A stretch of 64,000 nt of DNA from an uncultured Gammaproteobacteria bacterium (GCA_964630895.1 CAZVYE010000001.1:2319-66318), one strand, 5' to 3'; numbered from the stretch's first letter, positions 11,299 through 25,888 are shown. A program made the numbers and translations. Notes: generated by a model not told the origin, from the letters alone.

Positions 11299-12306
11299 TC
11301 AAGGCCTATGAGAATTCAATCCCACAAAAGTGCCACCATTTCGTTCGGTCATCAAACGCATCAAGTTTGCAAAACGTTCAACCGATCTCTGCATGTTGGG
11401 TGGTGCAAGAAAATGCACTGGAAATCCAACCGCGTGGATGCGAACCATGCGCTCGCCTTCCTTGGTCTCTTTGTTAATCGTGTCAATGGTCGCCAAGACT
11501 TGCTCCACCGAGCCCCCAGAAAAATCGTCACCGAACACGTACACACTGATCTTCTTGTCTGGCTGGTAAAACGTCCGAATGGCCTTGTTAATTCCTTCTA
11601 CCGGGCTGGAATTGGAAAACGCATTCCAGGTTCGCATGCGTTCTACGATGGCGCGTCTGCGCCCCGGTGAGTCGGGAATCCAGGTGCCAGAGTAGCGAGA
11701 GAACATATACTGGCCCATGTCGTTCATGACCTGGATGCCCTTGACCTCGGGATACACCTCCAGGGTCTCGATCACTTTGTCCAACAACAACTGCCAGGCA
11801 TAGTTGTACATAGAGCCCGAAGTATCGATTACGAATATGACGTATTCACTGTCAATTGGAATTCCGCCAACTGTTGTGTCGCTCACGGCCCGACGAAAGC
11901 TCATCCGGGCTTGCGCCTCGTTGAGCTCTTGTTGCGCTCGTTTGAGCTGATTTTCTAATTTCGCAACCGCGTCTGGCTGCGGCCCGGCCACATCAAACTC
12001 GGACTTGATGGTTTCCATTAGACGGTTGAGCCGGGCGATCTTATCCTTGATTTGAGACAGTTGCTCCTGCTTACTGACCAAAGTGCGGTTCAGGATCTCG
12101 GTTTCTCCACGGATTTCAAACAGAGTTTCCTGGAGCTGCGCGACTAAACCACTTAGATCTTCCTGGGTCTGCTCCAGGCGCATGGGTTCTGCGGTCTTCG
12201 CCAAAACCAGCAGCAAGATAATTGCGCCAAAGCCACAACAGATACAGTCCAGAAAAGACAGGCTAACCTGCTCTACGCCCCGGCGACCGCGCTTCAGCAC
12301 GCTCAT
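11299..12306 (-). CDS. ExbD/TolR-like TM anchor + coiled coil + vWA-domain protein (paralog 2)
   Basis: The N-terminus is MSVLKRGRRGVEQVSLSFLDCICCGFGAIILLLVL: a basic tail followed by a single TM with an Asp. A heptad-rich segment follows (LVAQLQETLFEIRGETEILNRTLVSKQEQLSQIKDKIARLNRL), then a vWA domain with an intact MIDAS motif, VIFVIDTSGSM. An ATGA overlap joins it to the upstream gene, and GGAGG precedes the ATG. Confidence 0.8.
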   Translation of the reverse strand: MSVLKRGRRGVEQVSLSFLDCICCGFGAIILLLVLAKTAEPMRLEQTQEDLSGLVAQLQETLFEIRGETEILNRTLVSKQEQLSQIKDKIARLNRLMETIKSEFDVAGPQPDAVAKLENQLKRAQQELNEAQARMSFRRAVSDTTVGGIPIDSEYVIFVIDTSGSMYNYAWQLLLDKVIETLEVYPEVKGIQVMNDMGQYMFSRYSGTWIPDSPGRRRAIVERMRTWNAFSNSSPVEGINKAIRTFYQPDKKISVYVFGDDFSGGSVEQVLATIDTINKETKEGERMVRIHAVGFPVHFLAPPNMQRSVERFANLMRLMTERNGGTFVGLNSHRP

Positions 12307-13394
12307 GGCCAGTCCTCCGAGGGACTCATAAACGATCCGCCAGAAACAATCGCAAGCTTCCAATAGCTGCTTGCCGCCAGCGGATCGCCTTCCATGGGAA
12401 ATAAAATGACGTTGATGGGTATACCTGAAGGAATTTGTCGTACTGCCTGCTCCAGGAAATTTTGTCGCTGCTTGCTAGAAACAGCTTCCAGTCGATCAGC
12501 GGGCTCACGACCTTGCGTAGGCAGGCTGTCTATAATCAGAAAAACATTGTCTGGCAATGGATCCATCTCACGAATCTTTTCTGCCACCGCGTAAAACCTG
12601 GTGCCGTCTTGGGGTATAACCTTTCTTAGTGCCAGCACCGACTCATCGAGTAGTCGACCTTGTTCCACTGGTAACCATTGACCATCCGTATCTGGCAAGG
12701 CCGGCCTGGTCTGGGTATTAAACGTGTAAATCTGAAATTTGGAGTCGGTGGGAAACTGAGTAGTGATCCAGTCCACCGTGCGCAGCGCTTTCTGCCACTT
12801 TGCGGAACGCTTCTTTTGCTCATCCGGCAGATTGCGCCGACGGATGATATTTACGATGGTGTTATCAAGCATGGAGGCTGAGGCGTCAACAAACACCGCG
12901 ATATTACGACCGCCAACGCGCAGACCTGTCAAATACTGGCGATCTCCTTCGCCGTAAAATTGACGCACTCCCTGGCCGCCTTCCAGGTCTTCTTCAGATA
13001 ACTTGGCAAGTTGATCTTCTGTAGCCCGCAGTTCAGCTATAAGCTGGTTGATATGCTCCATTTTCGCAGCCGTCTCGTCTTCACGCTCCGATAGCTCTTC
13101 ACGATCGTCTTCATACTCGTTGAGCAGCCGTTCCGCACGGCCGTCCGCTTGGACAATTTCCGTTTCCAGCTCATTGAGCGCATTGAGCAGCTTGGTCTTG
13201 TTCAGCTCCTCAAGTTGCACCTCGGTTTCCAGCAGCGAAACTTCGCCACTAAGATCCGCGCTCATATCATCGGAACGTGTCTCGGTGGCGTGATTGATGA
13301 TGACAAAAAACAGAATAACAGCGCCAAAGCCGCAGGACATGATGTCGAGAAACGACAGGCTAAATATGGAGAAATCACGCTTCTTGCGTGCCAT
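12303..13394 (-). CDS. ExbD/TolR-like TM anchor + coiled coil + vWA-domain protein (paralog 1)
   Basis: The N-terminus is MARKKRDFSIFSLSFLDIMSCGFGAVILFFVI, which shares SLSFLD..CGFGA[IV]IL with the downstream paralog. An acidic coiled coil follows, then a vWA domain with IAVFVDASASM (DxSxS). The ATG at 13394 overlaps the upstream stop by 20 nt. The maximal ORF reaches a TTG at 13412. Confidence 0.8.
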   Translation of the reverse strand: MARKKRDFSIFSLSFLDIMSCGFGAVILFFVIINHATETRSDDMSADLSGEVSLLETEVQLEELNKTKLLNALNELETEIVQADGRAERLLNEYEDDREELSEREDETAAKMEHINQLIAELRATEDQLAKLSEEDLEGGQGVRQFYGEGDRQYLTGLRVGGRNIAVFVDASASMLDNTIVNIIRRRNLPDEQKKRSAKWQKALRTVDWITTQFPTDSKFQIYTFNTQTRPALPDTDGQWLPVEQGRLLDESVLALRKVIPQDGTRFYAVAEKIREMDPLPDNVFLIIDSLPTQGREPADRLEAVSSKQRQNFLEQAVRQIPSGIPINVILFPMEGDPLAASSYWKLAIVSGGSFMSPSEDWP

Positions 13395-14742
13395 GCGCCA
13401 TCTCCACTGCAATCAACATAAGTTCCAACGTTGGTGCAAGTTGCACTCTATCACCAGCCTTGACGTTAACTGCGTCTTCCACGGATTGCTGATTGACCTT
13501 CAACGGTCTGCCTGACGCATTCTCTAATACAATTGTGTCTCCTTTCAGGCTCAAACGCAGGTGCTTTGGTGCCAACACATCGCCATATTGGGACAGGTTT
13601 ACGCCGGGCGGCGCCACGTCGGAACCAACCCAAAGTCCATCTGCTCCTATAGGATAAGCAGTTGCACCATGCAAGACATGGGTCGGTTTCCTACCACCGC
13701 CGTCTTGTATTTGATCGGCATGTTTGACCAAGTCGGGCTGACCAAACCAGGGCAACTTATCGATAAATGCAACGCCTTCATCTTCCTGCTGCCGATCCAG
13801 ATACAGTCGCGACAACCCATGATTCTTTTCGGTGAGTTCGCACGCAATCAGCTCCAACTGGGGCACCTGACTGAGCGCCGCGCTGATACCCGGCAAGCGA
13901 GCGAGTGATTGGGGTAACAGCAAGACGGGCGCATTAGCCCCCGAGACTTCCTGGGCAACAAATGCTTCCAGCCTGCGCAGTACAACCTCACCGGCGCGGG
14001 TGAGACGCTCCGTGTCGATAGTGCTTGCGAACTGCTTGTCACCATTGTCAATCTTGATGGCGATTGAGTCCCAGTCCTGCCCTAGCTGCTCCCACTCCAG
14101 CAGTGCGTCGTATAGAGATTGCTCAGTGCCTGCGTCGTGCATGGGATCAAAGCGAGTTTCGCTGACAAATCTACGGGCCGCTGCGTGACTCCAGGTCTCC
14201 CGCAGTCGGGCCAGGCCCACGTCCCGGTTTGTTGCAATGCGATCCATGCTGAGCCACTGACTCTGATCCAGCCTGGCCAGCACCGCTTTGTGTAAAAACA
14301 AATCCAGACAGAAGATAGTGCGCCCGGGTAATGGTCTGGGTGCCAGCGCCACAGGCTTCGCAAGCACCGCCCTGACCGGCATCTCCAGTCGCTGACACAC
14401 ACCCAATAACAAACTGACTTGCTCATCCGAGAAATCCGCAGGAACTGTGAGCAATAGCGGATCATTCGGACGTTCCAGTCGCTCCCAGATGGATTCCAGG
14501 TGCAGATAGGCCAAATCCGCTTGGGTGGCGGCCGCGCGGTAGGAAGCGGTGAGACCAGTGCGGCCGAATCGATCCCAAAACTGACTTTCTGTGCGGGTTG
14601 GATCAAGCTTTGAAACCGCTTGCGCATCTAGCCCTATCTGCGCATGTCTGCCACGCAAATTGATAAACGCTGGGCTCTCCAGCAAAGTGTTGCCATCTCT
14701 GCGTGCTCGTACCCCTACATCCTGGATATCGATGATGAGCAT
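13375..14742 (-). CDS. Cytoplasmic protein with an Hsp70/actin-like (ASKHA-like) N-terminal region and an FHA-like C-terminal domain
   Basis: The N-terminus, LIIDIQDVGVRARRDGNTLLESPAFINL...IGLDAQAVSKLDPTRTESQFWDRFGR, follows the DnaK N-terminal pattern (GIDLGTTNS...TTPSVV...VG..A...NP.NT....KRLIGR), but the phosphate-1 motif is degenerate. The C-terminus, HVLHGATAYPIGADGLWVGSD...HLRLSLKGDTIVLENASGRPLKVNQQSVEDAVNVKAGDRVQL, resembles FHA. The domain calls were made by eye only. Confidence 0.55.
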   Translation of the reverse strand: MLIIDIQDVGVRARRDGNTLLESPAFINLRGRHAQIGLDAQAVSKLDPTRTESQFWDRFGRTGLTASYRAAATQADLAYLHLESIWERLERPNDPLLLTVPADFSDEQVSLLLGVCQRLEMPVRAVLAKPVALAPRPLPGRTIFCLDLFLHKAVLARLDQSQWLSMDRIATNRDVGLARLRETWSHAAARRFVSETRFDPMHDAGTEQSLYDALLEWEQLGQDWDSIAIKIDNGDKQFASTIDTERLTRAGEVVLRRLEAFVAQEVSGANAPVLLLPQSLARLPGISAALSQVPQLELIACELTEKNHGLSRLYLDRQQEDEGVAFIDKLPWFGQPDLVKHADQIQDGGGRKPTHVLHGATAYPIGADGLWVGSDVAPPGVNLSQYGDVLAPKHLRLSLKGDTIVLENASGRPLKVNQQSVEDAVNVKAGDRVQLAPTLELMLIAVEMAHGTQEA

Positions 14743-14745
14743 GGA

Positions 14746-15576
14746 TCAGTCTTCTCGCAGCTTGGAAATCAAATGAGCGTCTGCGTATTCCTGTGTATCC
14801 AGCACCAGACGTTCCTGCATGAGCTGGAGTTGGTGCATCAGAAACATCAGGAATATGCTCAACACCAAAGCAATAAACGTCGAGTTGAAGGCAACCCCAA
14901 GACTTTGGGTTACGCCAGAAATGTCTCCCTCCACTGCCTTGTGCGCCTGTGCAAGCGCCTCGCCGATACCGCGAACCGTGCCGATAAATCCAATGGATGG
15001 AATGGCCCAGGCAATATAGCGAGTCATGGCGAGCTCAGAGTCCAGTCGTTCGGACTCTGATTCACACAACTCCCGCACTGTGGTTGCCACACTCTGGATA
15101 TCCCGAGTAGACCGAAATCGATGCAGAGCGGTTAGCAACACGCGTGGCAACAAGAAACTGCGCTCGCGTTCGGGCAGCGCCTGAATGGGACGGGCGTATT
15201 CGCGACTGTCTTCTGGAAGTACGCTGATACCCTGCCCCACTGGTACCAACTCGCGTTCTAACAGATTACGCTCTCGATAAGCCTTAACTGCCTTGTAGGT
15301 CATGATCGCTAGCGCCCAAAACAGCAGGATAAAACACGCCTCCTGTTCGAAATCCCGGATCAAGACAAATACCGATCGCTCAGGAACATAATCCGGATCG
15401 GCTGCTACTGCGGCCTGCTGCATCGCAATAATAGCTGCCGCCTGCGGCCGAATGAGAGTCACGTAGACTGTATGCACCGCGACCGTAGAAAACAGCAAAG
15501 CAAAGAGCTGATAGACAAATTCCACTGGGAATCGCTTACTCATCAGTCCTGGGTTCCTTATCGTTGTTGTGTTCAT
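14746..15576 (-). CDS. MotA/TolQ/ExbB-family proton channel protein
   Basis: It has three or four TM segments. The C-terminal core, MTRYIAWAIPSIGFIGTVRGIGEAL...GVAFNSTFIALVLSIFLMFLMHQL, matches the MotA_ExbB signature (..P.lGllGTV.G). An alternative start lies at 15543 (MSKRF, preceded by AAGGAA). Confidence 0.85.
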   Translation of the reverse strand: MNTTTIRNPGLMSKRFPVEFVYQLFALLFSTVAVHTVYVTLIRPQAAAIIAMQQAAVAADPDYVPERSVFVLIRDFEQEACFILLFWALAIMTYKAVKAYRERNLLERELVPVGQGISVLPEDSREYARPIQALPERERSFLLPRVLLTALHRFRSTRDIQSVATTVRELCESESERLDSELAMTRYIAWAIPSIGFIGTVRGIGEALAQAHKAVEGDISGVTQSLGVAFNSTFIALVLSIFLMFLMHQLQLMQERLVLDTQEYADAHLISKLRED

Positions 15577-15578
15577 AA

Positions 15579-16010
15579 TTAAATGTCGTTAGGGAATGAA
15601 ATCGAGCGATCCTCAGAAATCTTCTCCGACGGTTCAAACCGTTCCATGGTGGCCTGCATTTCCTCAGTCAAAGCAGCATCACCATCTAGGTCGCCTTCCG
15701 CCGCGTCTAGCTCCAACCCTTGTTCAGCAGTTGTTTCCTCCACAACCGCCGATTCGTCCGCTGAATCAGCTTCTGACGAGGCTGCAGCAGGAGTAACCGG
15801 ATTTGAATTTGGCGCTGACTCTTGATCGGATTCCGAGGCTACGTCGCGACTTTGCTCTTCCGATTGCGCTTCCGTGGTTTGCGCGTCAGTCTGAGCAAGC
15901 GCCATTCCTATCCATCCAACGCCGCCTGCAATGATCAAGACCATTGACAGCGCTCGCCACGCTTTGCGCATTGCAATGATCTTGTGAATGGTTGGCTGAC
16001 TACTCTGCAT
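15579..16010 (-). CDS. Small anchored or secreted, highly acidic, low-complexity protein
   Basis: A hydrophobic N-terminal segment (WRALSMVLIIAGGVGWIGMALAQ) is followed by about 100 aa rich in E, D, S, A and T. The start is either 16010, which overlaps the upstream stop by 11 nt, or 15971. The gene sits immediately upstream of the ExbB-like gene with a 2-nt gap. Confidence 0.55.
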   Translation of the reverse strand: MQSSQPTIHKIIAMRKAWRALSMVLIIAGGVGWIGMALAQTDAQTTEAQSEEQSRDVASESDQESAPNSNPVTPAAASSEADSADESAVVEETTAEQGLELDAAEGDLDGDAALTEEMQATMERFEPSEKISEDRSISFPNDI

Positions 16011-18117
16011 AACGGGCCACCCGGAATCCAATATCGTCTGCTGGCTCCAGGCCTTCTTCGCGATACGCCCAGCGTAGTTCTGTGATGGTGCCAGAATGCC
16101 AGCTGGAACCACGTACCACGTGGGCTTCTCCACTGGCTACGCCGGTGGGATCAACTTCGATGCTGCCCAACGTCCCAGGGTGAATAACATACACATCATG
16201 CATCCATTCAGAGGCATTGCCGCCCAGGTCATAAAATCCAAGGGCGTCCGGACCAAAACTGCCCACTATGGCGGATGCTGCGTGTGCGTCCTGATAGATA
16301 CTCAGAGGCTGATTGACCAGGCCTGTTGCCTCCCGACCAGCATAGTTGCCAGAGTCTGCGGCTGGCGGCATGGATTTGCCCCATGGGTATCGAGTCGGTT
16401 GTGTCGACGAATTAGCATGATAACGGGCCACTACCGCCCACTCCGCTTCCGTCGGCAGACGATAACCCGTATTGAGTGGCTCAACTGCACGCATATTGCC
16501 ACTAGCATCCGCAGCATAAGCCAGTGGCAGGCCCTCTTTCTCACTTAACCAATTGCAAAACTGGGCTGCTTCATTCCAACTAATTCGCACTACAGGCTGG
16601 GTCTTTAGTGAGAGGGTCGATTTGCCCACAACGCCGCTGTCATGTTCGGCTCGAAATTCGGCAAACTGCTGATTGGTGACCTCATGTGTGCCCAGATAGT
16701 AAGGCCGCTTCAGCTCCACCTGACGCAGAAACTCATTGGCCCTACGCCCCTGTTCCCGACGCCCACTACCCAAGCGGAATATGCCACTTGGTTGAATGAG
16801 CTTGAGCGTATAACCATTTTTTGCGCGCCAGATTTCTGGTGTTTTCTGGGCCCGAACTTCCGCGTCGCTCAACATGGCAACGCGAATTTCCTGCTCATGA
16901 TCCGGTGTCGGTGTAACGGTGGTAATAAATTCTTGATAACCCGGCTTTCGCACCACAATGCGTTGCGGGAATGCGGCGAGGGCCAGCGTATCTCCAGTGC
17001 TGCCTCTTACCGTGCCATTTACAACAATCTCAGCGCCTTCGGGGCCACCTACCACTCGAACACGTCCTAATACAGGCTGCAACGGGATGGATATTTCCTT
17101 GTTATCGCCTTGCGCTACAGCAACGCTGCGCTCGGTACCTCGGTAGCCCGTCTTGTTTAATTGCAGGCGATATGTTTCATCCGGAGGCAGCGCCAGTTCA
17201 ATGGGGGTCTGACCCTGGTAGGTCCCGTTTACCATGACCGTAGCACCGTTAGGTTGGCTACTCACCTGGACCAAAGCATCTGCCACTATCAATTCAATAA
17301 GCGGCAGTTGGCGTGCTTCGCCCGCATTAACGCTCAGCGTTTGCTGCCAGGGCTTGTATCCGTCCAAGCGCACAAGCACTTCTCGCTCGCCTTGCATGAT
17401 GGGAGTCGTTAAGGGTGTTTGCCCAACATTCTGCTGGTCCACATAAACCGTTGCGCCTACTGGTTCTGTAATGATCTGCACATCGGACCAGGCCGGTTCT
17501 AAAGACATAATCAGCGATTGTTCCTCCCCACCTCCCGCAACTTCGAGCATTTGACGGGATTCCAAATAGCGTGGGGATCGCGCAACCAGCTCATATTCGC
17601 CTGGACGCAATTCCAGTCGCTTGATTGGTAGCTGGCCAACGCTTTCACCATCCACCCACAGCGCGACTGGATCTGTTATCGGGCTTTCTACATTGAGGTA
17701 GCCAGGCAACTTGATAAGTTCAAAGATAAACTCCTGGTCAGAGGCGCTGGTAACAGAAATGGACTCACGTAGCGGATAATAGCCCGCTTTGTTGGCTTGT
17801 ACTTCAAACTCGCCCGGTCTGAGCAACCATCGCTCACCCAGTTGTACATTCCAAATGCCGCCTTCTACATCTAGTGTTTCTGCCTGCGGTGTGGTCTGAA
17901 TCAGCACCGGGGTACCAGTGAACAGATACCAAGCAGCCGCCGCCAGGCCAAAAAGCACAAGAAACGTGGCCAAACCAAGGAGTTTAGGAGCTAGATTTCC
18001 TGCTCGTCGCGATCCCGCACTAGGTTCAAAGGGCTCCGGTTGGATACGACGATAATTGCCTTCGCTGGCAGCGTCGCGTTCGGATATTCCTTTTTCTTGA
18101 TCAATCTGTTCGGTCAC
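16000..18117 (-). CDS. Single-pass membrane protein with 4-5 PEGA repeats and a C-terminal FGE-sulfatase (SUMF1)-like domain
   Basis: The TM is LLGLATFLVLFGLAAAAWYLF. The repeats look like ITEPVGATVYVDQQNVGQTPL..., SSQPNGATVMVNGTYQGQTPI... and GGPEGAEIVVNGTVRGST.... The C-terminus has the FGE family motifs YYLGTHEVTNQQFAEF, RISWNEAAQFCNWL, GYRLPTEAEWAVVAR, LGGNASEWMHD and VVRGSSW. Confidence 0.8.
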   Translation of the reverse strand: MTEQIDQEKGISERDAASEGNYRRIQPEPFEPSAGSRRAGNLAPKLLGLATFLVLFGLAAAAWYLFTGTPVLIQTTPQAETLDVEGGIWNVQLGERWLLRPGEFEVQANKAGYYPLRESISVTSASDQEFIFELIKLPGYLNVESPITDPVALWVDGESVGQLPIKRLELRPGEYELVARSPRYLESRQMLEVAGGGEEQSLIMSLEPAWSDVQIITEPVGATVYVDQQNVGQTPLTTPIMQGEREVLVRLDGYKPWQQTLSVNAGEARQLPLIELIVADALVQVSSQPNGATVMVNGTYQGQTPIELALPPDETYRLQLNKTGYRGTERSVAVAQGDNKEISIPLQPVLGRVRVVGGPEGAEIVVNGTVRGSTGDTLALAAFPQRIVVRKPGYQEFITTVTPTPDHEQEIRVAMLSDAEVRAQKTPEIWRAKNGYTLKLIQPSGIFRLGSGRREQGRRANEFLRQVELKRPYYLGTHEVTNQQFAEFRAEHDSGVVGKSTLSLKTQPVVRISWNEAAQFCNWLSEKEGLPLAYAADASGNMRAVEPLNTGYRLPTEAEWAVVARYHANSSTQPTRYPWGKSMPPAADSGNYAGREATGLVNQPLSIYQDAHAASAIVGSFGPDALGFYDLGGNASEWMHDVYVIHPGTLGSIEVDPTGVASGEAHVVRGSSWHSGTITELRWAYREEGLEPADDIGFRVARYAE

Positions 18118-18150
18118 CAGTCGTCTCTTGCCTCTAAGCTAAAACATCGA

Positions 18151-20310
18151 TTAAACAGAATCCTGACATCGCAACTCAATTGGCTGCGTCGGCTGGTCGG
18201 TTCGCACCCAGAATTCCTTGCGCACATCACGATACCCATCGCGAGAAGCTACTACGGTGTAGCGCCCTGGCCGCAGGCTGAGCTGATGTGTGTCAAACTG
18301 CCCCAGACGGCCCACTTTATAGACCACCACATTGCAGCTGCTGTCGGAAATCAACTGCACTGTCTGAGGCTGTCGCGCCAGTTCCAACTCGCGATCAAGC
18401 TTCGCGATTTGTTCCCGAAGTTTAGGCCCTGGATTTGCCACTGACCGCGCCTGCTGCAGAAGCTTACTGGCTTCCCTGCGACCGGTGTCATGCCACCACT
18501 GCTCAGGCTCTCCTACGAACGCGGACAATTTTTTATCTAATTGGGCGCGCCGCTTTGCAATCTTCAACCCGTCCTGGGCAAATTTGAGATTGGGATCTTC
18601 CTGCAAGGCAGCCTGGTACTTACGAATGGCATCGTCCCAGCGTTCCGCAGACACGAGATTGGCTACGGACTGTCCGTGACTACGCACATTGGCTCGCTTG
18701 GCCCGTAGCTGCAACTCAAGAAGGGCCTCTTTCGGGGCGGTTGATTCGGGCCGTAATCGAGCGGCAAGCTGCAGCTGATGTCTGGCCGAAGGCCAATCGT
18801 TTGCGTGCAGTGCTGCCAGCCCTCGGGTCATTGCAGCAGTAAACTTCTGTTCTTCAATTTGCGCCGCCAACTGGTCACGCTGGGATACAAGCCCGGACAT
18901 CTGCGCATCAATTTCTGCGGCCCGGGTAAATGCTTGAAGCGCAGATTCCAGATCCCCCCCCGCAAGCGCCGCATTGGCCTCACTGATAAGTTTTAGAACC
19001 GCCGGCAGGCTTTCCGCTCGCGCCTTACCGCGCGTTGCCATTGGTGACTCTGGATTGATCGCCAACGCCAGGTCGAATGCTTTGTGCGCGGCATCCACGT
19101 TTTTACCGTCAAGTGCAGCAAACCCATTGCTGAGCACTTCCGACAACACGACGTCGGACAGCGCGTCGATCTCTTGAAGTTGCCGTAGCGCCTGGGTGTA
19201 AAACTCGGTGGCTTTTGAAAATTGTTGTGCCCTGAATGGTTCGTCACCCTGGGTCGCTAAAGCTCTGGCGGACTGAAATTGCTCGGGAGCCCACGAATCC
19301 ACCTGTCTGTCTTCCAGGTCAAGCTGCAATTGAATCAGCTCATCCAATACGGTTTCCGCGGCTTTCCGCTGGGCCAGCAAAAGCTCCAGATCGTAGGGTG
19401 TGCGCTCGTCAACCGCAGCTTTAGCCTCGTCGGCCACCACCGGTTCGGTGACAACTACCGCCGGAACCGGACTTGGTGGTTCTATCAGTGGCTGGACTTG
19501 CTGTGGCAGCCACCAAAGCAGTCCCATGCCCAACACCACCGCAAGCAGCAACAGACCGGGCAGCATAAACCAGCTACGACTGCGGTGCTCTCCAGCAGAT
19601 TGTGTTGGCCAAGCGCCGCCATCCTCTAGGTCGGAGGATGCCGCTATCGCAACTGCGTCATCTTCACCACGCTGAAGACGCAAGCGCAAATCTGCAATTT
19701 CCTGCTTACAACGACGAGCGTCCCATGCCTCGTCCTGCACCTTTTCAGCGGCGAGCTGCTGCCACCTGGTCACCATTTCTGGCGTTTCGATGTTACGGAA
19801 GCGATAACTGAGCCAGTCTAGCAAGCCCAACAAATCCGCTTTGGCAGAAATATTCCGGTGCAGACGCGGGTACAGTAAGCGCCAATCGCCACCCCGGCGT
19901 GAGATTAAGCTTTGGTGATCCACGCTACCGTGGGTTAGCCCTTCGGCGTGCATACTGATAAGCGCTTCTGCCACCCGAACGCCGCCAGACAAGATGCTGT
20001 CTACCGACTTCTCTACGCCTTCGTGTGGCTTATCAATCTCCCAGCTCAGCCAAACAAAGTCCGACTCCATCCCGACTTCTGCGGGAGACTTGAGCACCGG
20101 ATGCAATAGACTGGCGTAACTGTCAGCTTGCGATTTGAGTGCTGGCGCATCCGAGCCTTCGCAAGGGAATATCTGCAGCATAAACACTGCGCCATCCGAA
20201 GCGTGTGCCTGCCACAAGTACATACCCGCCTCAGCAAGCTGCTGTTTCCCCAAAACAAAACGCGATGCAAGGGTTTTGCCTTCAACAAGATTTTCCAGCA
20301 GCTTCGACAT
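18151..20310 (-). CDS. Kinase-like (predicted pseudokinase) N-domain + TM + TPR-like helical repeats + C-terminal PEGA-like domain
   Basis: The first 170 aa or so are laid out like a protein kinase but lack the catalytic motifs: AVFMLQIF at the VAIK position, and HAEGLTHGSVDHQSLI where HRDxKxxN is expected. The TM is WFMLPGLLLLAVVLGMGLLWWL. A long A/L/Q-rich repeat region follows. The C-terminus is LSLRPGRYTVVASRDGYRDVRKEFWV. Confidence 0.65.
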   Translation of the reverse strand: MSKLLENLVEGKTLASRFVLGKQQLAEAGMYLWQAHASDGAVFMLQIFPCEGSDAPALKSQADSYASLLHPVLKSPAEVGMESDFVWLSWEIDKPHEGVEKSVDSILSGGVRVAEALISMHAEGLTHGSVDHQSLISRRGGDWRLLYPRLHRNISAKADLLGLLDWLSYRFRNIETPEMVTRWQQLAAEKVQDEAWDARRCKQEIADLRLRLQRGEDDAVAIAASSDLEDGGAWPTQSAGEHRSRSWFMLPGLLLLAVVLGMGLLWWLPQQVQPLIEPPSPVPAVVVTEPVVADEAKAAVDERTPYDLELLLAQRKAAETVLDELIQLQLDLEDRQVDSWAPEQFQSARALATQGDEPFRAQQFSKATEFYTQALRQLQEIDALSDVVLSEVLSNGFAALDGKNVDAAHKAFDLALAINPESPMATRGKARAESLPAVLKLISEANAALAGGDLESALQAFTRAAEIDAQMSGLVSQRDQLAAQIEEQKFTAAMTRGLAALHANDWPSARHQLQLAARLRPESTAPKEALLELQLRAKRANVRSHGQSVANLVSAERWDDAIRKYQAALQEDPNLKFAQDGLKIAKRRAQLDKKLSAFVGEPEQWWHDTGRREASKLLQQARSVANPGPKLREQIAKLDRELELARQPQTVQLISDSSCNVVVYKVGRLGQFDTHQLSLRPGRYTVVASRDGYRDVRKEFWVRTDQPTQPIELRCQDSV

Positions 20311-20370
20311 CGGTTTAGTTCGGTTTCCTTTCGTCCGTAAAGAATAAGTCCAACGCTTTGCCCAGCGAGC

Positions 20371-21600
20371 CTAGCCGTCCTCGTCAGCCAGTGGCAATCC
20401 CACTTCGGCCGCATAAATTTGACGCAACAATTCACGCCATTGTCGATATTGGGCTTCCAGCGAACCATCCAGCTTAACTACTTCGCCCTCTACGTTGACC
20501 ACCAGCGGCTTCACCTCAGAATCAAAGGAAGCAGCTAGTTCGCGAAGCGTTTCACGGTGCAGCGCGGATTCTTTGTACGTGTCATAGCCCTGCTTAATTG
20601 CGCTTAGTCCACCTAACGCAGCTGAGGGTCCCACGACGTTACGCACAATAGGGTTGCTTGACTTAGCAGTGGCTGCCGCACCCCCAAGCACACCCAATAC
20701 GCCTGCCACGGTTCGCGCTCTGGCAGAACGTTTCAAGTCGGCAACCGCAAGCGTTTCCTGGTAACTGTATTGACGCCAGGACTGGTAAGAAGGGTCCATC
20801 TGTCGATAAAACGCACCGTACTGCTGGTCTAATGTGTCAATCACCAGATATTCGCTTTCCCGAATCCGATCGACACGCTGCAGCATCGGGTCGGTGTCGG
20901 CGGGGAGACGGTTAATGGCTACCTGTCCTTTGTCATTGATACTCAGATGATCGCCAAACGCATCAGGAGCAAGCTGAGCTGCGTACTTCAACTCGGAAAT
21001 AGTGCGGATTCTGGCGAGTTCTTGGGTTGTAAAGTCCTGTCTTGCTGCCAGCAGATCGTTCGCGATGCGGTTGTAAATGTCCTGGAAAGGATCGCCGGGG
21101 TAGTCAATGTCATCCCGATAAGCAAACTGTGTCGCAGTATCTTCGTAGGTTTCTTCAAGCCAAACCCGACCTGTCACGTCATAGGCCACCACGTCCAGCT
21201 CCATGGTAAAACCATCGGACTGAAGAATGGTTCCCGTCACTGTAATTTCGGCGGTAGGGTCTGGATCAGGCAATACGCGTACGGCTCCCCACTGATTGGT
21301 TTTCTCCAATGTATTCCGCAACACATAGGGCACATAACGGGCTTCGGCTTTGCGCACCTGTGGAAACACAGCTTCTTCTTCATCGGGTTCTGCTTCTTCA
21401 GTCACGCCCGGATTAAAAACCACTACGTTGACATCCAGCAGGACCTGCTCTTGCAACTGCTCCTCGGCCCGGATCGCCGAAACGGAATTGACCTTCTTGA
21501 CGCTATGAGACGTGCATGCCGCCAGCACCAATAAGAAAGCCACCATTGAGGCCACTCTAAAAGTGTTTGAACGGATGTTTCTATTGAAATAATCAACCAT
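20371..21600 (-). CDS. Lipoprotein of unknown function with a Gly-zipper-like C-proximal segment
   Basis: The lipobox is FLLVLAACTS. The mid region is IRAEEQLQEQVLLDVNVVVFNPG...ITVTGTILQSDGFTMELDVVAYDVTGRVW. The later segment VAGVLGVLGGAAATAKSS...GPSAALGGLSAIKQG looks like a glycine zipper. The start lies 2 nt after the upstream stop. Confidence 0.6.
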   Translation of the reverse strand: MVDYFNRNIRSNTFRVASMVAFLLVLAACTSHSVKKVNSVSAIRAEEQLQEQVLLDVNVVVFNPGVTEEAEPDEEEAVFPQVRKAEARYVPYVLRNTLEKTNQWGAVRVLPDPDPTAEITVTGTILQSDGFTMELDVVAYDVTGRVWLEETYEDTATQFAYRDDIDYPGDPFQDIYNRIANDLLAARQDFTTQELARIRTISELKYAAQLAPDAFGDHLSINDKGQVAINRLPADTDPMLQRVDRIRESEYLVIDTLDQQYGAFYRQMDPSYQSWRQYSYQETLAVADLKRSARARTVAGVLGVLGGAAATAKSSNPIVRNVVGPSAALGGLSAIKQGYDTYKESALHRETLRELAASFDSEVKPLVVNVEGEVVKLDGSLEAQYRQWRELLRQIYAAEVGLPLADEDG

Positions 21601-21602
21601 GA

Positions 21603-22640
21603 TTAGCCTACCGACTCTTTGTATTTACGGTACTCGTCCCACAATTTTTCTCTAAGAACAGGGTCCGACTCTCGCATTGCCGCTTCGCGTAATTGCCTTG
21701 CCACAACATCGTCATCGCTACCATCACCGACATCCTGAGGAACTCTTTGCTTGTCGCGAGTACTGTCACCGCCCTGCGAGATCCAACCAGGTGTACCACT
21801 GGCGTCATCACCTTGACCGGATGCGCCACCACCTGAACTTGACTGGCTATCACCATCTACCATGACGAGGCCGCCATCTTCTCCGGTTTGGTCGGACCCA
21901 CCTTCTAACTCGGATCCTTCGGCGCCGCTTGGAGACTCGGAGCCGCCTTCCATATCTTCAGGGATATCCGCTGAGGCCAGCACCGTGATTTGACGCGCCA
22001 TTTCTCCGTCATGGGTTTGCAGCGTTTCAAGCAAGCGTGCATCAAGTGATGCCACATCGCCTGACTCCGCTTCTTCTCCATCTTCGCCGCCGGCAGGTCC
22101 TCCACCAAGCTCAGCGAGCTCTTCAGATTCAGCGCCACCGCCTGCGGACCCGTCACCGCCGTCTTCACCACCACCCGCAGGTTCTTCAGCACCTTCTTCG
22201 CCTCCTCCACCCGCATCGGCAACTGCATCGCTCTCGGCCTGCGCGCCTGATTCGGGTTCGGGTTCTAGCACTTCTAACTCACTTTCGGCACCACTGGCAC
22301 CGGCCTCAGCACTGGCTGAATCGCTTTCAGAACCACTTGGAATTGGCACTGGGATAGGTTCACCTGTGCCGCTGCTTGGTCGTTGACTGCCCTGGCTGCT
22401 GGAAGAGCTACTCGATGAACTGCTGGAAGACTGTGAGCCACTCTGGGACTGCTGTCCTCGACTCCTTGACTGCGAACTGCTGGAACTACTCGAACTACTG
22501 GAGCTGGAAGAACTGGAGCTAGAGGTCGGAGAAGGTGGTGTTGGCATGCCCGAAGAACTACTCGGTGAACTCATGCATCCACTAAGAACCAGCATGAATG
22601 TGGCCACCATCACAATCAGCCATTGCCCTAAAGTACGCAT
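21603..22640 (-). CDS. Lipoprotein with an extreme poly-Ser tract, a long acidic Gly/Glu/Ser-rich disordered region and a short conserved-looking C-terminal helix
   Basis: The ATG at 22640 is preceded by GGAGG. The lipobox is MLVLSGCMSS. The poly-Ser run is SSSSSSSSSSSSSSSSSQSRSRGQQSQSGSQSSSSSSSSSSSSQ, followed by GGGEEGAEEPAGGGEDGGDGSAGGG.... The C-terminus is DDVVARQLREAAMRESDPVLREKLWDEYRKYKESVG. Confidence 0.6.
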   Translation of the reverse strand: MRTLGQWLIVMVATFMLVLSGCMSSPSSSSGMPTPPSPTSSSSSSSSSSSSSSSSSQSRSRGQQSQSGSQSSSSSSSSSSSSQGSQRPSSGTGEPIPVPIPSGSESDSASAEAGASGAESELEVLEPEPESGAQAESDAVADAGGGGEEGAEEPAGGGEDGGDGSAGGGAESEELAELGGGPAGGEDGEEAESGDVASLDARLLETLQTHDGEMARQITVLASADIPEDMEGGSESPSGAEGSELEGGSDQTGEDGGLVMVDGDSQSSSGGGASGQGDDASGTPGWISQGGDSTRDKQRVPQDVGDGSDDDVVARQLREAAMRESDPVLREKLWDEYRKYKESVG

Positions 22641-22916
22641 TTTTCTACCTCCAGCTCTTTTCAGGTCAGAAACTTGGGCTACCAGATTAGTCTTACTTAG
22701 ATAGACCCTCAAGAGTCAACATTGGTTGCACAAGCTTGAATTTGATTATGTACTATATTTTTCGTATATCAAGAATGCGCAGACAAATGCGCACTTTGGG
22801 CAGCGTGGTCGGAGCGACTATATTCATTCCTTAAAAACACCATTCGCTGCAACGAAAATGGTTTTTTGACGGTCTACGCGTATGATGATACGGCAAACAA
22901 TGTGAGGGGATTTTGC
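22641..22916. promoter_or_regulatory. Divergent intergenic region, presumed to hold promoters for the nine-gene operon (leftward) and the lipoprotein pair (rightward)
   Basis: This 276-bp non-coding gap separates divergent genes. It contains an AT-rich stretch, ttgaatttgattatgtactatatttttcgtatatcaag. I did not map specific -35/-10 boxes with any confidence. Confidence 0.4.
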
Positions 22917-23522
22917 ATGCTCCAATTTCGCCATTGTGGAATTGCACTTTTTCTACTGCTACTACTTGCAGGCTGCGGCGGCAAAGTAATTATCGACGAC
23001 CACTTTCCTCAGCCTGTGGTTGCGCCATTGCCCTACCGCGTTGGAATCTACTACCCACCAGAGTTCTCCAATTATCAATACCAGGACGAAGAGTCGCGCC
23101 TGACTTTTCAGCTAGGCCAGCGGCAAAAAATGCTGTTCGAGCAGGTCTTTGAGGCGATGTTTCTGCAGAAGGTGGTGTTAACCAGTGCCGTGGCGGACGC
23201 GGACGACCTTGATTTGATTCTAAGTCCAAAGCTTACGCAATATGCCTTCTTAACACCTACCGAGACCGCTACCGAGTTTTTTGCGGTCTCAATTAAGTAC
23301 CAAATACAGCTGTTTAATCCAGAGGGCGAGATGATCGCGTTTTGGCCCATGGTCGCTTACGGCAAGAGCCGCACCAAAATGATCAACAAGAATGAGTCTC
23401 TGGGTGAGGCCACCAGCGTTGCATTACGTGATGCGGCGGCAGCCATGGTGTCTCAGTTTCATACCGTATTAGCAAAAGAAGAATGGCGCAGCGCCAGCGC
23501 TGATCAACCGGAGGCATTATGA
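22917..23522 (+). CDS. Lipoprotein, unknown function
   Basis: The signal and lipobox are MLQFRHCGIALFLLLLLAGCGG. A 4-nt overlap with the next gene suggests translational coupling. The maximal ORF starts at 22866. Confidence 0.55.
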   Translation: MLQFRHCGIALFLLLLLAGCGGKVIIDDHFPQPVVAPLPYRVGIYYPPEFSNYQYQDEESRLTFQLGQRQKMLFEQVFEAMFLQKVVLTSAVADADDLDLILSPKLTQYAFLTPTETATEFFAVSIKYQIQLFNPEGEMIAFWPMVAYGKSRTKMINKNESLGEATSVALRDAAAAMVSQFHTVLAKEEWRSASADQPEAL

Positions 23523-24166
23523 GAACTATATTGGCATTATTGGCGGTGGCCATTCTATCCGGCTGTGTCACCTCCAGAGTGGAAGAATTTTTGGTGGAGC
23601 AACCTGTGCTAACCGGTGAAGACGCCATCGTTATTCTTACAAACAGGCAAGACGCCGTGGTTGAAACGGAGCGGACTTTCTCGGACTGCTTATATTCCGA
23701 ACTGCAAAAAACTAATGGCGATGTGGAAATAGTCTCGGAACGCGCATTCAAAGACGCTTTATTCCCCTGGTTTGAGCCTCGCCTCGCGCCGGCTCGCGCT
23801 GATGCCATTCCTGACCTTTTGAAGCGAGACGGGCTGTCACAACGAGTCGATGAGCTCAACGTGCGTTATCTGGTGTGGATTCACGGAGAATCTGAAGCGC
23901 GCAACAAACAAGGCATGATGTCGTGTACGTTAAGCCCAGCTGGCGGAGGCTGCGTGGGGGTCTTGAGCTGGGATAATGCATCCAATTATGAGGCATCTAT
24001 TTGGGATTTACGTAAAGGCGAATCCATGGGCGTGATTACCAGTGAAGCAACCGGAACGTCAGTGGTGCCGGCAATCGGCGTACCCATCCCCTTGATCGCC
24101 CGTACCAAGAATGCCTCGTGCAAGACTTTGGCTGATCAGCTCAGCTCCTCGCTATTTGGCGCTTAA
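23519..24166 (+). CDS. Lipoprotein, unknown function
   Basis: The signal and lipobox are MRTILALLAVAILSGCVTS. Its ATG overlaps the upstream stop (ATGA). Confidence 0.55.
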   Translation: MRTILALLAVAILSGCVTSRVEEFLVEQPVLTGEDAIVILTNRQDAVVETERTFSDCLYSELQKTNGDVEIVSERAFKDALFPWFEPRLAPARADAIPDLLKRDGLSQRVDELNVRYLVWIHGESEARNKQGMMSCTLSPAGGGCVGVLSWDNASNYEASIWDLRKGESMGVITSEATGTSVVPAIGVPIPLIARTKNASCKTLADQLSSSLFGA

Positions 24167-25743: not shown

Positions 25744-25888
25744 CAACACATATCCCTCCAATTCATGATTTTTTGTTAGGGCGTGAGCATAACAGTATAA
25801 ACAGCGCCTTCGTACGAATGTTGCCGTGCCCGCTTATGTCTTACTCCGTCAACTCCACACTAAAGAAAATTGCCATGAGACACCAATA

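What the first reader, a model, noticed from the sequence alone, without database searches (positions are those of the whole stretch)
11299..15576. Putative stator-like core: ExbB/MotA-like channel plus TWO diverged partners whose ExbD/TolR periplasmic domain is replaced by coiled coil + vWA
The two vWA proteins share a distinctive N-terminus: MARKKRDFSIFSLSFLDIMSCGFGAVILFFVI versus MSVLKRGRRGVEQVSLSFLDCICCGFGAIILLLVL. Each has a short basic cytoplasmic tail followed by one TM helix with an Asp near its cytoplasmic end. That is the ExbD/TolR/MotB arrangement, in which this Asp (D25 in E. coli ExbD, D23 in TolR) is the protonatable residue inserted into the ExbB/TolQ/MotA pentamer. After the TM comes about 100 aa of heptad-rich sequence, then a vWA domain with an intact DxSxS MIDAS motif (DTSGSM; DASASM). 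No canonical exbD, tolR or motB gene lies next to the channel gene. Because MotA/ExbB-family complexes are 5:2 assemblies, two different partner genes suggest a heterodimeric inner pair. In that model, channel activity would be transmitted through a coiled-coil stalk to metal-dependent adhesion (vWA) heads in the periplasm.
Basis: partly seen in the sequence, partly recalled or inferred. Interest (0 to 1): 0.8.

Follow-up and report, generated by a model that had tools for sequence, protein, structure and literature searches.

The report
Proton motor with vWA-tipped axle
A TolQ/ExbB-like proton channel gene sits beside two paralogous genes whose proteins pair a TolR/ExbD-style aspartate-bearing membrane helix with a coiled-coil stalk and a metal-binding adhesion (vWA) head; the arrangement is real and widespread, but a 2025 paper already proposed this motor from computer models, and nobody has tested what it does.

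Summary
Window 11299-15576 (minus strand) encodes a MotA/TolQ/ExbB-family channel (F), a cytoplasmic Hsp70-fold/FHA protein (G), and two paralogues (H, I). H and I each have a basic tail, one TM helix with an invariant Asp (SFLD), a heptad stalk of about 110 residues, and a vWA domain with a MIDAS motif. No exbD, tolR or motB gene was found in the 64-kb window or in 83 related loci. F keeps both pore threonines of TolQ (T145/T178 equivalents) and models as an ExbB/TolQ fold.

PMC12204202 (Mol Biol Evol 2025, Fig. 4c-d) describes TolQ-like genes with heterologous pairs of vWA proteins that have a "transpore helix". It includes AF3 models showing the Asp pair inside a threonine ring.

H and I are not ExbD/TolR family members by sequence. 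They may work like them, but that is inferred.

What this analysis adds:
- The trio is the core of a cassette of 11-12 genes, conserved in order across at least 590 species. It contains four lipoproteins, a TPR (± kinase) protein, a PEGA/FGE-sulfatase-like protein and a small secreted protein with an invariant C-terminal peptide.
- The kinase and the FHA phosphothreonine-binding residues were lost together in many lineages.

The function is unknown.

The parts
14746..15576 (-). F: MotA/TolQ/ExbB-family channel subunit (276 aa; possibly 265 aa from Met12). T200 (codon 14977-14979) and T233 (14878-14880) correspond to TolQ T145 and T178.
   Evidence: Pfam PF01618 E = 7.4e-15. There are >= 8000 homologues, and the 120 listed are 65-80% identical. 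Both Thr are invariant in 28 sequences. The AF2 model has pLDDT 86, and its best Foldseek hits are ExbB and TolQ, with TM-score up to 0.72. Four TM helices are predicted, with an extra N-terminal one and an invariant periplasmic loop YVPERSxYVLIRDFEQE.
12303..13394 (-). H (vWA-1): basic tail, transpore-type TM helix (13296-13364; Asp17 codon 13344-13346), coiled-coil stalk (about residues 39-140), and vWA domain with MIDAS DASAS (12873-12887).
   Evidence: Of 16 homologues, 14 hit VWA_2 (best E = 9.4e-9). There are 517 clusters (50% identity) at E <= 1e-30.
11299..12306 (-). I (vWA-2): paralogue of H. It has a basic tail, a TM helix (12199-12267; Asp20 codon 12247-12249), a coiled-coil stalk 12 residues shorter than that of H, and a vWA-like domain with DTSGS (11812-11826).
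   Evidence: BLASTP against H gives E = 4e-13. Asp-to-MIDAS spacing is 141-144 in I against 154-156 in H, with a difference of 12 in 53 of 79 loci. Heptad periodicity z = 4.9.
13375..14742 (-). G: cytoplasmic protein with an Hsp70/actin-like nucleotide-binding-domain fold (residues 1-345) and a C-terminal FHA domain. In this window the FHA phosphothreonine-binding residues are degenerate.
   Evidence: The AF2 model has pLDDT 89.8. Foldseek matches DnaK, Ssb and Hsp110 nucleotide-binding domains at E ~ 1e-17. FHA Pfam hits occur in homologues. G is absent from one reduced cassette (L084) and lacks the FHA domain in another (L085).
15579..15971 (-). E: small secreted protein with a signal peptide, a variable acidic linker and an invariant extreme C-terminal peptide (here ERFEPSEKISEDRSISFPNDI-COOH).
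   Evidence: The ORF between D and F in most of ~60 loci examined ends in ...PSE.IS.D..VsFP(V/N)DI. A minimal 50-aa version occurs in distant locus L084.
16000..18117 (-). D: bitopic inner-membrane protein with periplasmic PEGA repeats and an FGE-sulfatase-like domain. The domain lacks the catalytic Cys pair.
   Evidence: Pfam PEGA E = 4.7e-47 and FGE-sulfatase E = 1.1e-37. D is present in every cassette, including the reduced ones. There is no Cys in the RGSSWHSG... region (read).
18151..20310 (-). C: pseudokinase domain (HGS in place of HRD), TM helix, periplasmic TPR repeats and a C-terminal beta-sandwich.
   Evidence: Pfam TPR hits. Orthologues in Acidobacteriota and some Gammaproteobacteria keep HRDxKxxN and DFG. 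In many other lineages the kinase region does not align with the C orthologue, and one orthologue examined directly (L003, 513 aa) has no Pkinase hit.
20371..21600 (-). B: predicted lipoprotein of 409 aa with no known domain.
   Evidence: Lipobox LAAC. Conserved in 57 loci and in the distant loci L084 and L085 (E ~ 1e-59).
21603..22640 (-). A: predicted lipoprotein with a poly-Ser/acidic low-complexity region and a conserved C-terminal helix. It is the first gene of the operon. A promoter-like site lies at 22745-22772 (minus strand).
   Evidence: Lipobox LSGC. Conserved in 49 loci. TTGATA-16-CATAAT matches 10/12. This is a consensus match only and is not enriched over shuffles.
22866..24166 (+). 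J (22866/22917-23522) and K (23519-24166): two small predicted lipoproteins. They are divergent from the operon here, but follow I on the same strand in about 45 gammaproteobacterial loci.
   Evidence: the dn2 and dn3 columns. Lipoboxes LAGC and LSGC with no Asp at +2. No Pfam match.
24259..25761 (-). Periplasmic TPR + TonB_C-domain protein. It lies upstream of A in at least 22 gammaproteobacterial loci and is a lineage-specific accessory of the cassette.
   Evidence: Pfam TPR_12 E = 8.5e-18 and TonB_C E = 5.3e-8. Homologues sit at the 5' edge of 22 loci.

Best explanation
F, H and I most likely form the inner-membrane core of a proton-driven 5:2-type motor.

**Proposed mechanism.**
- A pentamer of the TolQ/ExbB-like F surrounds the two Asp-bearing helices of H and I.
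- Protonation and deprotonation of Asp17(H) and Asp20(I) against the T200/T233 ring of F drives relative rotation or a conformational change.
- The H/I coiled coil (about 110 residues, roughly 15 nm) carries that movement across the periplasm to two vWA/MIDAS heads.

**Larger system.** The motor is the energising part of a conserved trans-envelope system:
- D and C, both anchored in the inner membrane;
- the small secreted protein E;
- four lipoproteins (A, B, J, K) that lack an inner-membrane retention signal.

In the ancestral form, the C kinase and the FHA domain of G provide cytoplasmic control. In this window both are degenerate.

**Shown here:** family membership of F, the architecture and conservation of H and I, the absence of ExbD/TolR/MotB genes, and the conserved cassette.

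**Inferred:** helix insertion, 1:1 H:I pairing, proton coupling, what the vWA heads bind, and the physiological output.
For: - F belongs to MotA_ExbB, models as an ExbB/TolQ fold, and keeps both pore Thr invariant.
- H and I are the only cassette proteins with an Asp in their TM helix (read).
- That Asp is invariant in all ~160 H and I sequences from 83 loci and in 18 distant homologues. Several of those distant homologues have lost the first MIDAS Asp.
- The helix is 67% identical between paralogues that are 25% identical overall.
- No ExbD, TolR or MotB gene occurs in the window or in 83 loci.
- In a reduced cassette, F is directly followed by H and I.
- H and I always co-occur, are translationally coupled, and keep a fixed 12-residue difference in stalk length.
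- Both stalks show heptad periodicity.
- Gene order is conserved across at least 590 species and three phyla.
- Published AF3 models of this architecture place the Asp pair within the Thr ring (PMC12204202).
Against: - No physical or modelling evidence for the complex was obtained here.
- The helix shows no detectable sequence homology to ExbD, TolR or MotB.
- F is predicted to have four TM helices rather than the three of TolQ/ExbB, so pentamer geometry may differ.
- The genome outside the window surely encodes TolQR and ExbBD systems, which I could not inspect.
- The vWA fold of I rests on paralogy and a motif, not on a structure.
- I could not verify that the published exemplar (Idiomarina loihiensis) is an orthologue of this cassette.
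Confidence: 0.6

Rival explanations
1. H and I do insert into F pentamers, but as homodimers. This would give two kinds of motor (F5H2 and F5I2) rather than one heterodimeric axle.
For: All structurally solved 5:2 motors have homodimeric B subunits (established knowledge; the PDB hits are ExbBD, TolQR and MotAB). Both paralogues keep the Asp and the full helix motif.
Against: H and I co-occur strictly, with an ATGA overlap. The 12-residue stalk offset is fixed across lineages, as expected if the two stalks pair. The published AF3 model uses a heterologous pair. AglQ/AglS of Myxococcus offer a precedent for two different TolR-like partners (my own knowledge, not checked here).
Confidence: 0.12
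2. H and I are ordinary membrane-anchored periplasmic vWA scaffolds of the BatA/BatB type. In this reading, F works with a TolR/ExbD encoded elsewhere or acts alone as a channel or sensor.
For: The helix has no significant sequence similarity to ExbD/TolR. The rest of the genome is unseen.
Against: A passive anchor would not be the most conserved segment of the protein, with an invariant charged residue, across phyla and between paralogues. F is very diverged from TolQ (phmmer E = 0.003), which makes cross-pairing with housekeeping TolR/ExbD unlikely. No locus out of 83 carries a TolR-like gene.
Confidence: 0.1
3. The cassette is primarily a Ser/Thr-kinase/FHA signalling module. The vWA proteins would act as periplasmic sensors and F as an accessory channel, not as a force-generating machine.
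For: Orthologues in Acidobacteriota and some Gammaproteobacteria have an intact kinase together with an intact FHA signature (GISRxHC). The two degenerate together elsewhere, which shows they are functionally linked.
Against: The kinase domain is lost or dead in most lineages, including this window. G is missing altogether in L084. Meanwhile F, H, I, D and E stay highly conserved. Signalling is therefore an accessory layer, not the core.
Confidence: 0.08
4. It is an anti-phage defence system of the Zorya type, that is, a MotA-like motor that senses envelope perturbation.
For: F gives weak hits to ZorA models (PADLOC ZorA2 E = 5.5e-4; NCBIfam ZorA_4 E = 0.066). Like Zorya, the channel lacks a conventional partner from the flagellar, Ton or Tol systems.
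Against: The hits cover only the shared MotA/ExbB core. There is no ZorB, no ZorC/D and no nuclease or other effector. GC content matches the neighbouring DNA. The cassette is fixed in gene order across whole families such as Halieaceae and across phyla, unlike patchy defence islands. Its other genes are periplasmic and lipoprotein components.
Confidence: 0.04

Closest known systems
TolQ-like + transpore-helix vWA pairs ("TPH-vWA") proposed in Mol Biol Evol 2025, msaf138 (PMC12204202), Fig. 4c-d; exemplar Idiomarina loihiensis
   Same: A TolQ-like gene lies next to two different vWA genes. There is no tolR, exbD or motB. Each vWA protein has an N-terminal helix with a conserved Asp, and the TonB/TolA SHLS motif is absent. 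The channel has a conserved Thr ring. The taxonomic spread is wide and centred on Proteobacteria.
   Different: That paper gives one paragraph, AF3 models and no experiments. The text and supplements I could read do not describe the 11-12 gene cassette, the Hsp70-fold/FHA protein between the channel and the vWA genes, the kinase link or the small secreted protein. I could not obtain the I. loihiensis sequences, so orthology with this cassette is untested. The reduced cassette L084 (F directly followed by H and I) matches the paper's drawing most closely.
TolQ-TolR(-TolA) and ExbB-ExbD(-TonB) 5:2 motors
   Same: F has the ExbB/TolQ fold and both pore threonines. The partner has a basic tail and an N-in TM helix, with an Asp about six residues into the helix.
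   Different: The partners are two paralogues rather than a homodimer. The periplasmic TolR/ExbD domain is replaced by a coiled coil plus a vWA domain. There is no TolA/TonB-type third subunit, so the axle itself would reach across the periplasm. F has an additional predicted N-terminal TM helix. The helix sequence (SFLDxxxCGFGA) is not recognisably ExbD/TolR.
GldLM/PorLM motor with PorK/GldK of the type IX secretion/gliding system
   Same: It is a 5:2 motor whose axle protein extends far into the periplasm. It is associated with an FGE-sulfatase-fold protein: D gives a partial GldK hit, TIGR03525 E = 1.7e-22.
   Different: The GldK score is 80 bits against a cutoff of 350. No GldL, GldM, GldN or SprA homologues are present. 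D is anchored in the inner membrane by a TM helix and carries PEGA repeats, whereas PorK/GldK is a lipoprotein. The charge-bearing residues differ from those of GldLM.
Zorya ZorAB
   Same: It is a MotA-family pentamer with a non-canonical partner, outside the flagellar, Ton and Tol systems.
   Different: There is no ZorB with a peptidoglycan-binding domain, no long ZorA tail and no ZorC/D. The genomic distribution looks vertical rather than island-like.

Membership tests
MotA/TolQ/ExbB proton channel family (PF01618), tested for F | Profile HMM match above the curated threshold | tested here: met
   E = 7.4e-15, 55.3 bits against a cutoff of 22.9.
MotA/TolQ/ExbB proton channel family (PF01618), tested for F | Two pore-lining threonines (TolQ T145/T178; ExbB T148/T181) | tested here: met
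   F T200 and T233 align to them and are invariant in 28 homologues.
MotA/TolQ/ExbB proton channel family (PF01618), tested for F | ExbB/TolQ/MotA subunit fold | tested here: met
   The AF2 model has pLDDT 86. Top Foldseek PDB hits are ExbB and TolQ, with TM-score up to 0.72. MotA, PomA and ZorA score lower.
TolQ/ExbB subfamily, tested for F | Three TM helices with the N-terminus in the periplasm | tested here: inconclusive
   Hydropathy and the model suggest four TM helices, with a basic N-terminus on the cytoplasmic side. This is a prediction only.
TolQ/ExbB/MotA systems | Adjacent gene for a TolR/ExbD/MotB partner | tested here: not met
   None in the 64-kb window and none in 83 related loci.
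ExbD/TolR family (PF02472), tested for H and I | Profile HMM match | tested here: not met
   There is no ExbD hit for the full proteins at E <= 0.1 or for the N-terminal 60 residues at E <= 10. A profile of the helix finds no ExbD, TolR or MotB chain in the PDB.
ExbD/TolR family (PF02472), tested for H and I | Short basic cytoplasmic tail and a single N-in TM helix with a conserved Asp near the cytoplasmic end | tested here: met
   Asp17 (H) and Asp20 (I) are invariant. hhalign places the Asp on TolR D23, but without significance: probability 1.35%, P = 0.038.
ExbD/TolR family (PF02472), tested for H and I | Periplasmic ExbD/TolR alpha/beta domain | tested here: not met
   A coiled coil plus a vWA domain occupies the periplasmic part.
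von Willebrand A domain with MIDAS, tested for H and I | vWA profile match | tested here: inconclusive
   The window proteins score below the cutoffs: H VWA_3 22 bits and I VWA_2 19.4 bits, against 27. However, 14 of 16 H homologues match VWA_2 (best E = 9.4e-9), 13 match VWA_3 and 5 match VWA. I is linked through paralogy to H. No PDB sequence hit was found.
von Willebrand A domain with MIDAS, tested for H and I | MIDAS residues DxSxS...T...D | tested here: met
   In H, D170/S172/S174/T265/D289 are invariant. In I, D161/S163/S165 and G259-D260 are conserved, with the Thr position occupied by a conserved Ser-rich loop. Some distant H homologues replace the first Asp.
von Willebrand A domain with MIDAS, tested for H and I | Rossmann-like vWA fold | not tested
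TPH-vWA/TolQ-like motors of PMC12204202 | TolQ-like gene with a heterologous vWA pair, no tolR/exbD, a helix with conserved Asp and no SHLS motif, and a Thr ring | tested here: met
   There is no His or SHLS motif in either helix (read).
TPH-vWA/TolQ-like motors of PMC12204202 | Orthology with the published I. loihiensis exemplar, and insertion of the helices in a modelled complex | not testable with these tools
   The sequences are not in the paper's text supplements. The genome-collection scan and the structure jobs were exhausted, and no multimer modelling was available.
Zorya (ZorAB + ZorC/D/E) | ZorA and ZorB profile matches plus effector genes | tested here: not met
   There are only weak hits to the ZorA core: E = 5.5e-4 in PADLOC, and E = 0.066 at 12 bits against a cutoff of 500 in NCBIfam. 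No other Zor component is present.
T9SS/gliding GldKLMN | GldK/L/M/N equivalog matches | tested here: not met
   D scores 80 bits against TIGR03525 GldK, whose cutoff is 350. There are no hits to GldL, GldM or GldN.

The most novel reading that the evidence does not exclude
This would be an uncharacterised class of envelope machine. The rotating or pistoning axle of a 5:2 proton motor is itself a heterodimeric coiled coil tipped with two MIDAS heads.

- The heads would capture an acidic linear motif. The best candidate is the invariant C-terminal ...SFPVDI-COOH peptide of the co-encoded secreted protein E, or a motif on one of the outer-membrane lipoproteins.
- The motor would do mechanical work at the outer membrane without any TonB/TolA-type adaptor.
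- An FGE-sulfatase-fold/PEGA protein would act as the periplasmic scaffold.
- An Hsp70-fold/FHA protein under kinase control would act as an optional cytoplasmic clutch.
Probability: 0.3. Interest if true: 0.8.

Novelty: new member of a known kind. Interest (0 to 1): 0.55.

Why it matters
Only a handful of ion-driven 5:2 motor systems are understood: flagellar MotAB, Ton, Tol, GldLM, AglRQS and Zorya. Here the proton-coupled helix is fused directly to a long stalk and an adhesion-type head, which would be a distinct way to deliver inner-membrane energy to the outer envelope.

The cassette is common. At least 590 species representatives carry it, and H has 517 protein clusters (50% identity) at E <= 1e-30. 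It occurs in abundant marine and sediment Gammaproteobacteria (Halieaceae/OM60, Woeseiaceae, Lysobacterales) and in Acidobacteriota. No phenotype is known.

Several cultured carriers make it directly testable: Congregibacter variabilis, Pseudohaliea rubra, Kineobactrum sediminis and Exilibacterium tricleocarpae. The full parts list assembled here gives concrete partners and mutations to test.

Tried and rejected
1. **Sequence homology of the H/I helix to ExbD/TolR/MotB.** The Pfam scan of the first 60 residues at E <= 10 gave nothing. A PDB-wide search with a 37-sequence helix profile gave only an irrelevant NDUFB4 TM match. hhalign against E. coli TolR/ExbD gave probability 1.35%. I therefore rejected family membership and kept the functional analogy.

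2. **A vWA structure relative by sequence.** The H family profile found nothing relevant in the PDB.

3. **Defence-system reading.** PADLOC gave only coiled-coil noise and a weak ZorA core hit. Rejected.

4. **Aravind-type vWA-MoxR/ternary conflict systems.** I checked eLife 2020. It has no MotA-like component and no match to this cassette. Rejected.

5. **T9SS kinship via GldK.** The match is at domain level only. Rejected as membership.

6. **Identifying the source organism or names.** Exact look-ups returned unnamed singleton clusters from one 68-kb NCBI contig. No contig record was found.

7. **Linking to the published I. loihiensis exemplar.** The sequences are not in the supplements, and no Idiomarina name appears among the cluster members.

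8. **Multimer modelling.** Not possible.

9. **Promoter and terminator scan.** Counts were not above shuffles. Only the position of the best minus-strand site, upstream of A, is suggestive.

Full report
**What is there**

Window 11299-24166 holds a compact minus-strand operon. The gene order is A (21603-22640), B (20371-21600), C (18151-20310), D (16000-18117), E (15579-15971), F (14746-15576), G (13375-14742), H (12303-13394) and I (11299-12306). Gaps between genes are 2-60 nt, G and H overlap by 20 nt, and H and I overlap by ATGA. Base composition is uniform with the surrounding DNA. The finding covers F, G, H and I.

**The channel (F)**

- F matches Pfam MotA_ExbB above threshold: E = 7.4e-15, 55.3 bits against a cutoff of 22.9.
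- It has at least 8000 homologues; the 120 best listed are 65-80% identical.
- An AF2 model (pLDDT 86) is closest to solved ExbB and TolQ chains, with TM-score up to 0.72 to A. baumannii TolQ. MotA, PomA and ZorA score lower.
Both are invariant in 28 homologues.
- Unlike TolQ/ExbB, F is predicted to have an extra N-terminal TM helix, giving four in total with a basic N-terminus inside. It also has an invariant periplasmic loop, YVPERSxYVLIRDFEQE.

**The two partners (H and I)**

- H and I are paralogues (BLASTP E = 4e-13, 25% identity).
- Each has a short basic tail and a TM helix: FSLSFLDIMSCGFGAVILFFVII in H and VSLSFLDCICCGFGAIILLLVLA in I. These helices are 14/21 identical.
- In a 16-sequence alignment of H, the invariant residues in the N-terminal part (tail, helix and stalk) cluster in this helix: S14, F15, L16, D17, C21, G22, F23, G24, A25, L28 and F30.
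- The Asp is present in every H and every complete I from 83 related loci. It is also present in all 18 more distant homologues inspected.
- Several of those distant homologues have lost the first MIDAS Asp. The helix Asp is therefore more strongly conserved than the adhesion site.
- After the helix, family-averaged hydrophobicity peaks at a period of 3.5 residues (z = 10.9 for H and 4.9 for I). This confirms a coiled-coil stalk of about 100-110 residues.
- The distance from the helix Asp to the MIDAS Asp is nearly fixed: 154-156 residues in H and 141-144 in I. The difference is 12 in 53 of 79 loci.
- The C-terminal domains carry DxSxS. In H this is D170/S172/S174 plus T265 and D289, all invariant. 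In I it is D161/S163/S165 plus G259-D260.
- The window proteins score just below the Pfam vWA cutoffs. At family level the assignment holds, because 14 of 16 H homologues match VWA_2 (best E = 9.4e-9).

**No canonical partner**

phmmer with E. coli TolR, ExbD and MotB found nothing in any six-frame ORF of the window. It also found nothing in about 1.3 Mb of related loci. The TolQ probe did retrieve F, so the search works.

**Is the helix an ExbD/TolR helix?**

By arrangement, yes. By detectable sequence homology, no.
- The Pfam ExbD model gives no hit, even at E <= 10, on the N-terminal 60 residues.
- A profile of the helix finds no ExbD, TolR or MotB chain in the PDB.
- hhalign against TolR/ExbD puts Asp on Asp, but with probability 1.35%.

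H and I should therefore not be filed as ExbD/TolR family members. The claim that they work like them stands on other evidence: the invariant charged residue, the extreme conservation of the helix, the intact Thr pair in F, and the universal absence of any other partner.

**Prior art**

A full-text search found one relevant paper: Mol Biol Evol 2025, msaf138 (PMC12204202). [quoted passage not shown] 4c-d make these points:
- TM-tethered vWA proteins co-occur tightly with tolQ homologues and without tolR/exbD.
- They are mostly found as heterologous pairs.
- AF3 models surround that Asp with the conserved Thr ring of the pentamer.

The paper states that function is unknown and reports no experiments. 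I could not get its exemplar sequences, so orthology is untested. One distant member of the present family has F directly followed by H and I (L084), which matches the paper's description.

**What this analysis adds: the cassette**

- Two look-ups showed the same gene order in an Acidobacteriota MAG and a gammaproteobacterial MAG.
- In every locus long enough, the order A-B-C-D-(E)-F-G-H-I is kept.
- Two small lipoprotein genes (J, K) follow I in about 45 gammaproteobacterial loci. In this window they sit divergently at 22866-24166.
- A TPR + TonB_C protein (24259-25761) precedes A in at least 22 loci.
- A, B, J and K have lipoboxes without Asp at +2.
- D has a TM helix, PEGA repeats and an FGE-sulfatase-like domain without the catalytic cysteines.
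- E is a signal peptide, a variable acidic linker and an invariant C-terminal peptide ...PSE.IS.D..VsFP(V/N)DI. In a distant locus it is reduced to 50 residues but keeps that peptide.
- In the representative library, H has 517 clusters at E <= 1e-30 and 2677 at E <= 0.001.

**The cytoplasmic layer**

- G models confidently (pLDDT 89.8) as an Hsp70-type nucleotide-binding-domain fold (Foldseek E ~ 1e-17 to DnaK and Hsp110) plus a C-terminal FHA domain.
- The glycine-rich phosphate loops of Hsp70 are not evident in the family consensus. It may be a scaffold rather than an ATPase. This is inference.
- C carries an intact kinase (HRDxKxxN...DFG) in Acidobacteriota and some Gammaproteobacteria. It is a pseudokinase here (HGS). 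In many other lineages the kinase region does not align, and one such orthologue (L003, 513 aa) has no Pkinase hit.
- The FHA phosphothreonine-binding signature (G[IV]SRxHC) survives almost only where the kinase is intact.
- The two are therefore coupled, but dispensable. G is absent in L084 and lacks its FHA domain in L085.

**Mechanism**

The best-supported model (confidence about 0.6) is a proton-driven motor.
- Five F subunits surround the H and I helices.
- Asp17 and Asp20 cycle protons against the Thr ring.
- The paired stalk, roughly 15 nm long, transmits movement to two MIDAS heads near the outer membrane.
- There the heads engage a partner from the cassette. The E C-terminal acidic peptide is an attractive but untested candidate.

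Shown here: the parts, their conservation and their linkage. Inferred: assembly, stoichiometry, coupling and output.

The rivals are all weaker, for reasons given in their entries: homodimeric axles, passive vWA anchors, a purely signalling module, and Zorya-like defence.

**Verdict**

- The instance is a new member of a kind known only in silico.
- The extended cassette, the kinase/FHA co-degeneration and the conserved E peptide are useful additions.
- Interest is moderate (0.55). This is a widespread, experimentally untouched envelope machine, but it is no longer a new idea.

Noticed in passing
window 15579-15971 (-); between D and F in loci L001-L083; L084 about 9040-9190: The small secreted protein E has an invariant extreme C-terminal peptide ([FY]xP[ST]Ex[IV]S.D..[VI]sFP[VN]DI-COOH) behind a variable acidic linker. 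In L084 the whole protein is only 50 aa and is unannotated. It could be a ligand for the MIDAS heads (an LDV-like acidic motif) or a beta-strand docking peptide.
   Followed up: partly
window 18151-20310 (C) and 13375-14742 (G); loci: The kinase catalytic motifs in C and the phosphothreonine-binding residues of the FHA domain in G are retained together (Acidobacteriota and some Gammaproteobacteria) or lost together (this window and most Halieaceae). This is evidence of a kinase-to-FHA link that is dispensable for the core machine.
   Followed up: yes
window 22866-24166 (+) and 24259-25761 (-): Lipoprotein genes J and K lie downstream of I in about 45 related loci. Here they have been moved and inverted to sit between gene A and a TPR + TonB_C gene, which itself precedes A in at least 22 loci. 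This is a local rearrangement of the cassette.
   Followed up: partly
window 14971-14991 (F residues 196-202): The pore-helix motif is GTVRGI, with an invariant Arg where TolQ and ExbB have Trp (GTVWGI). A buried Arg two residues from the pore Thr might pair with the H/I Asp or sit at a subunit interface. This cannot be resolved without a model of the complex.
   Followed up: no
proteins P0411, P0424, P0427, P0430, P0436: A distant subfamily of H homologues replaces the first MIDAS Asp (giving EASGG, RASGS, EGSGG or EVSGG) while keeping the TM Asp and the CGFGA motif. Metal-dependent binding by that head may not be universal.
   Followed up: no
L084 (ERZ22157276 ctg13826c) and L085 (ERZ25069296): Reduced cassettes exist. 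L084 lacks G entirely, so F is directly followed by H and I. L085 has a 308-aa G without the FHA domain and a short C-like gene (259 aa). A-like or B-like, D, E, F, H and I genes persist, which defines the minimal core.
   Followed up: partly
window 21603-22712 (-): Lipoprotein A contains long poly-Ser tracts and a Gly/Glu/Asp-rich low-complexity region, followed by a conserved C-terminal helix (...LREKLWDEYRKYKE). The same C-terminal motif is present in the distant L084 homologue.
   Followed up: no
window 13375-14742 (G), alignment A2: The Hsp70-fold domain of G lacks recognisable DxGTT and DxGGGT phosphate-binding loops. Its most conserved motif is TRFDPLH...TEQ (R197, F198, P200, E207, Q208). 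It is probably a non-catalytic actin-fold scaffold, comparable in role to PilM or the GspL cytoplasmic domain. This is my inference.
   Followed up: no
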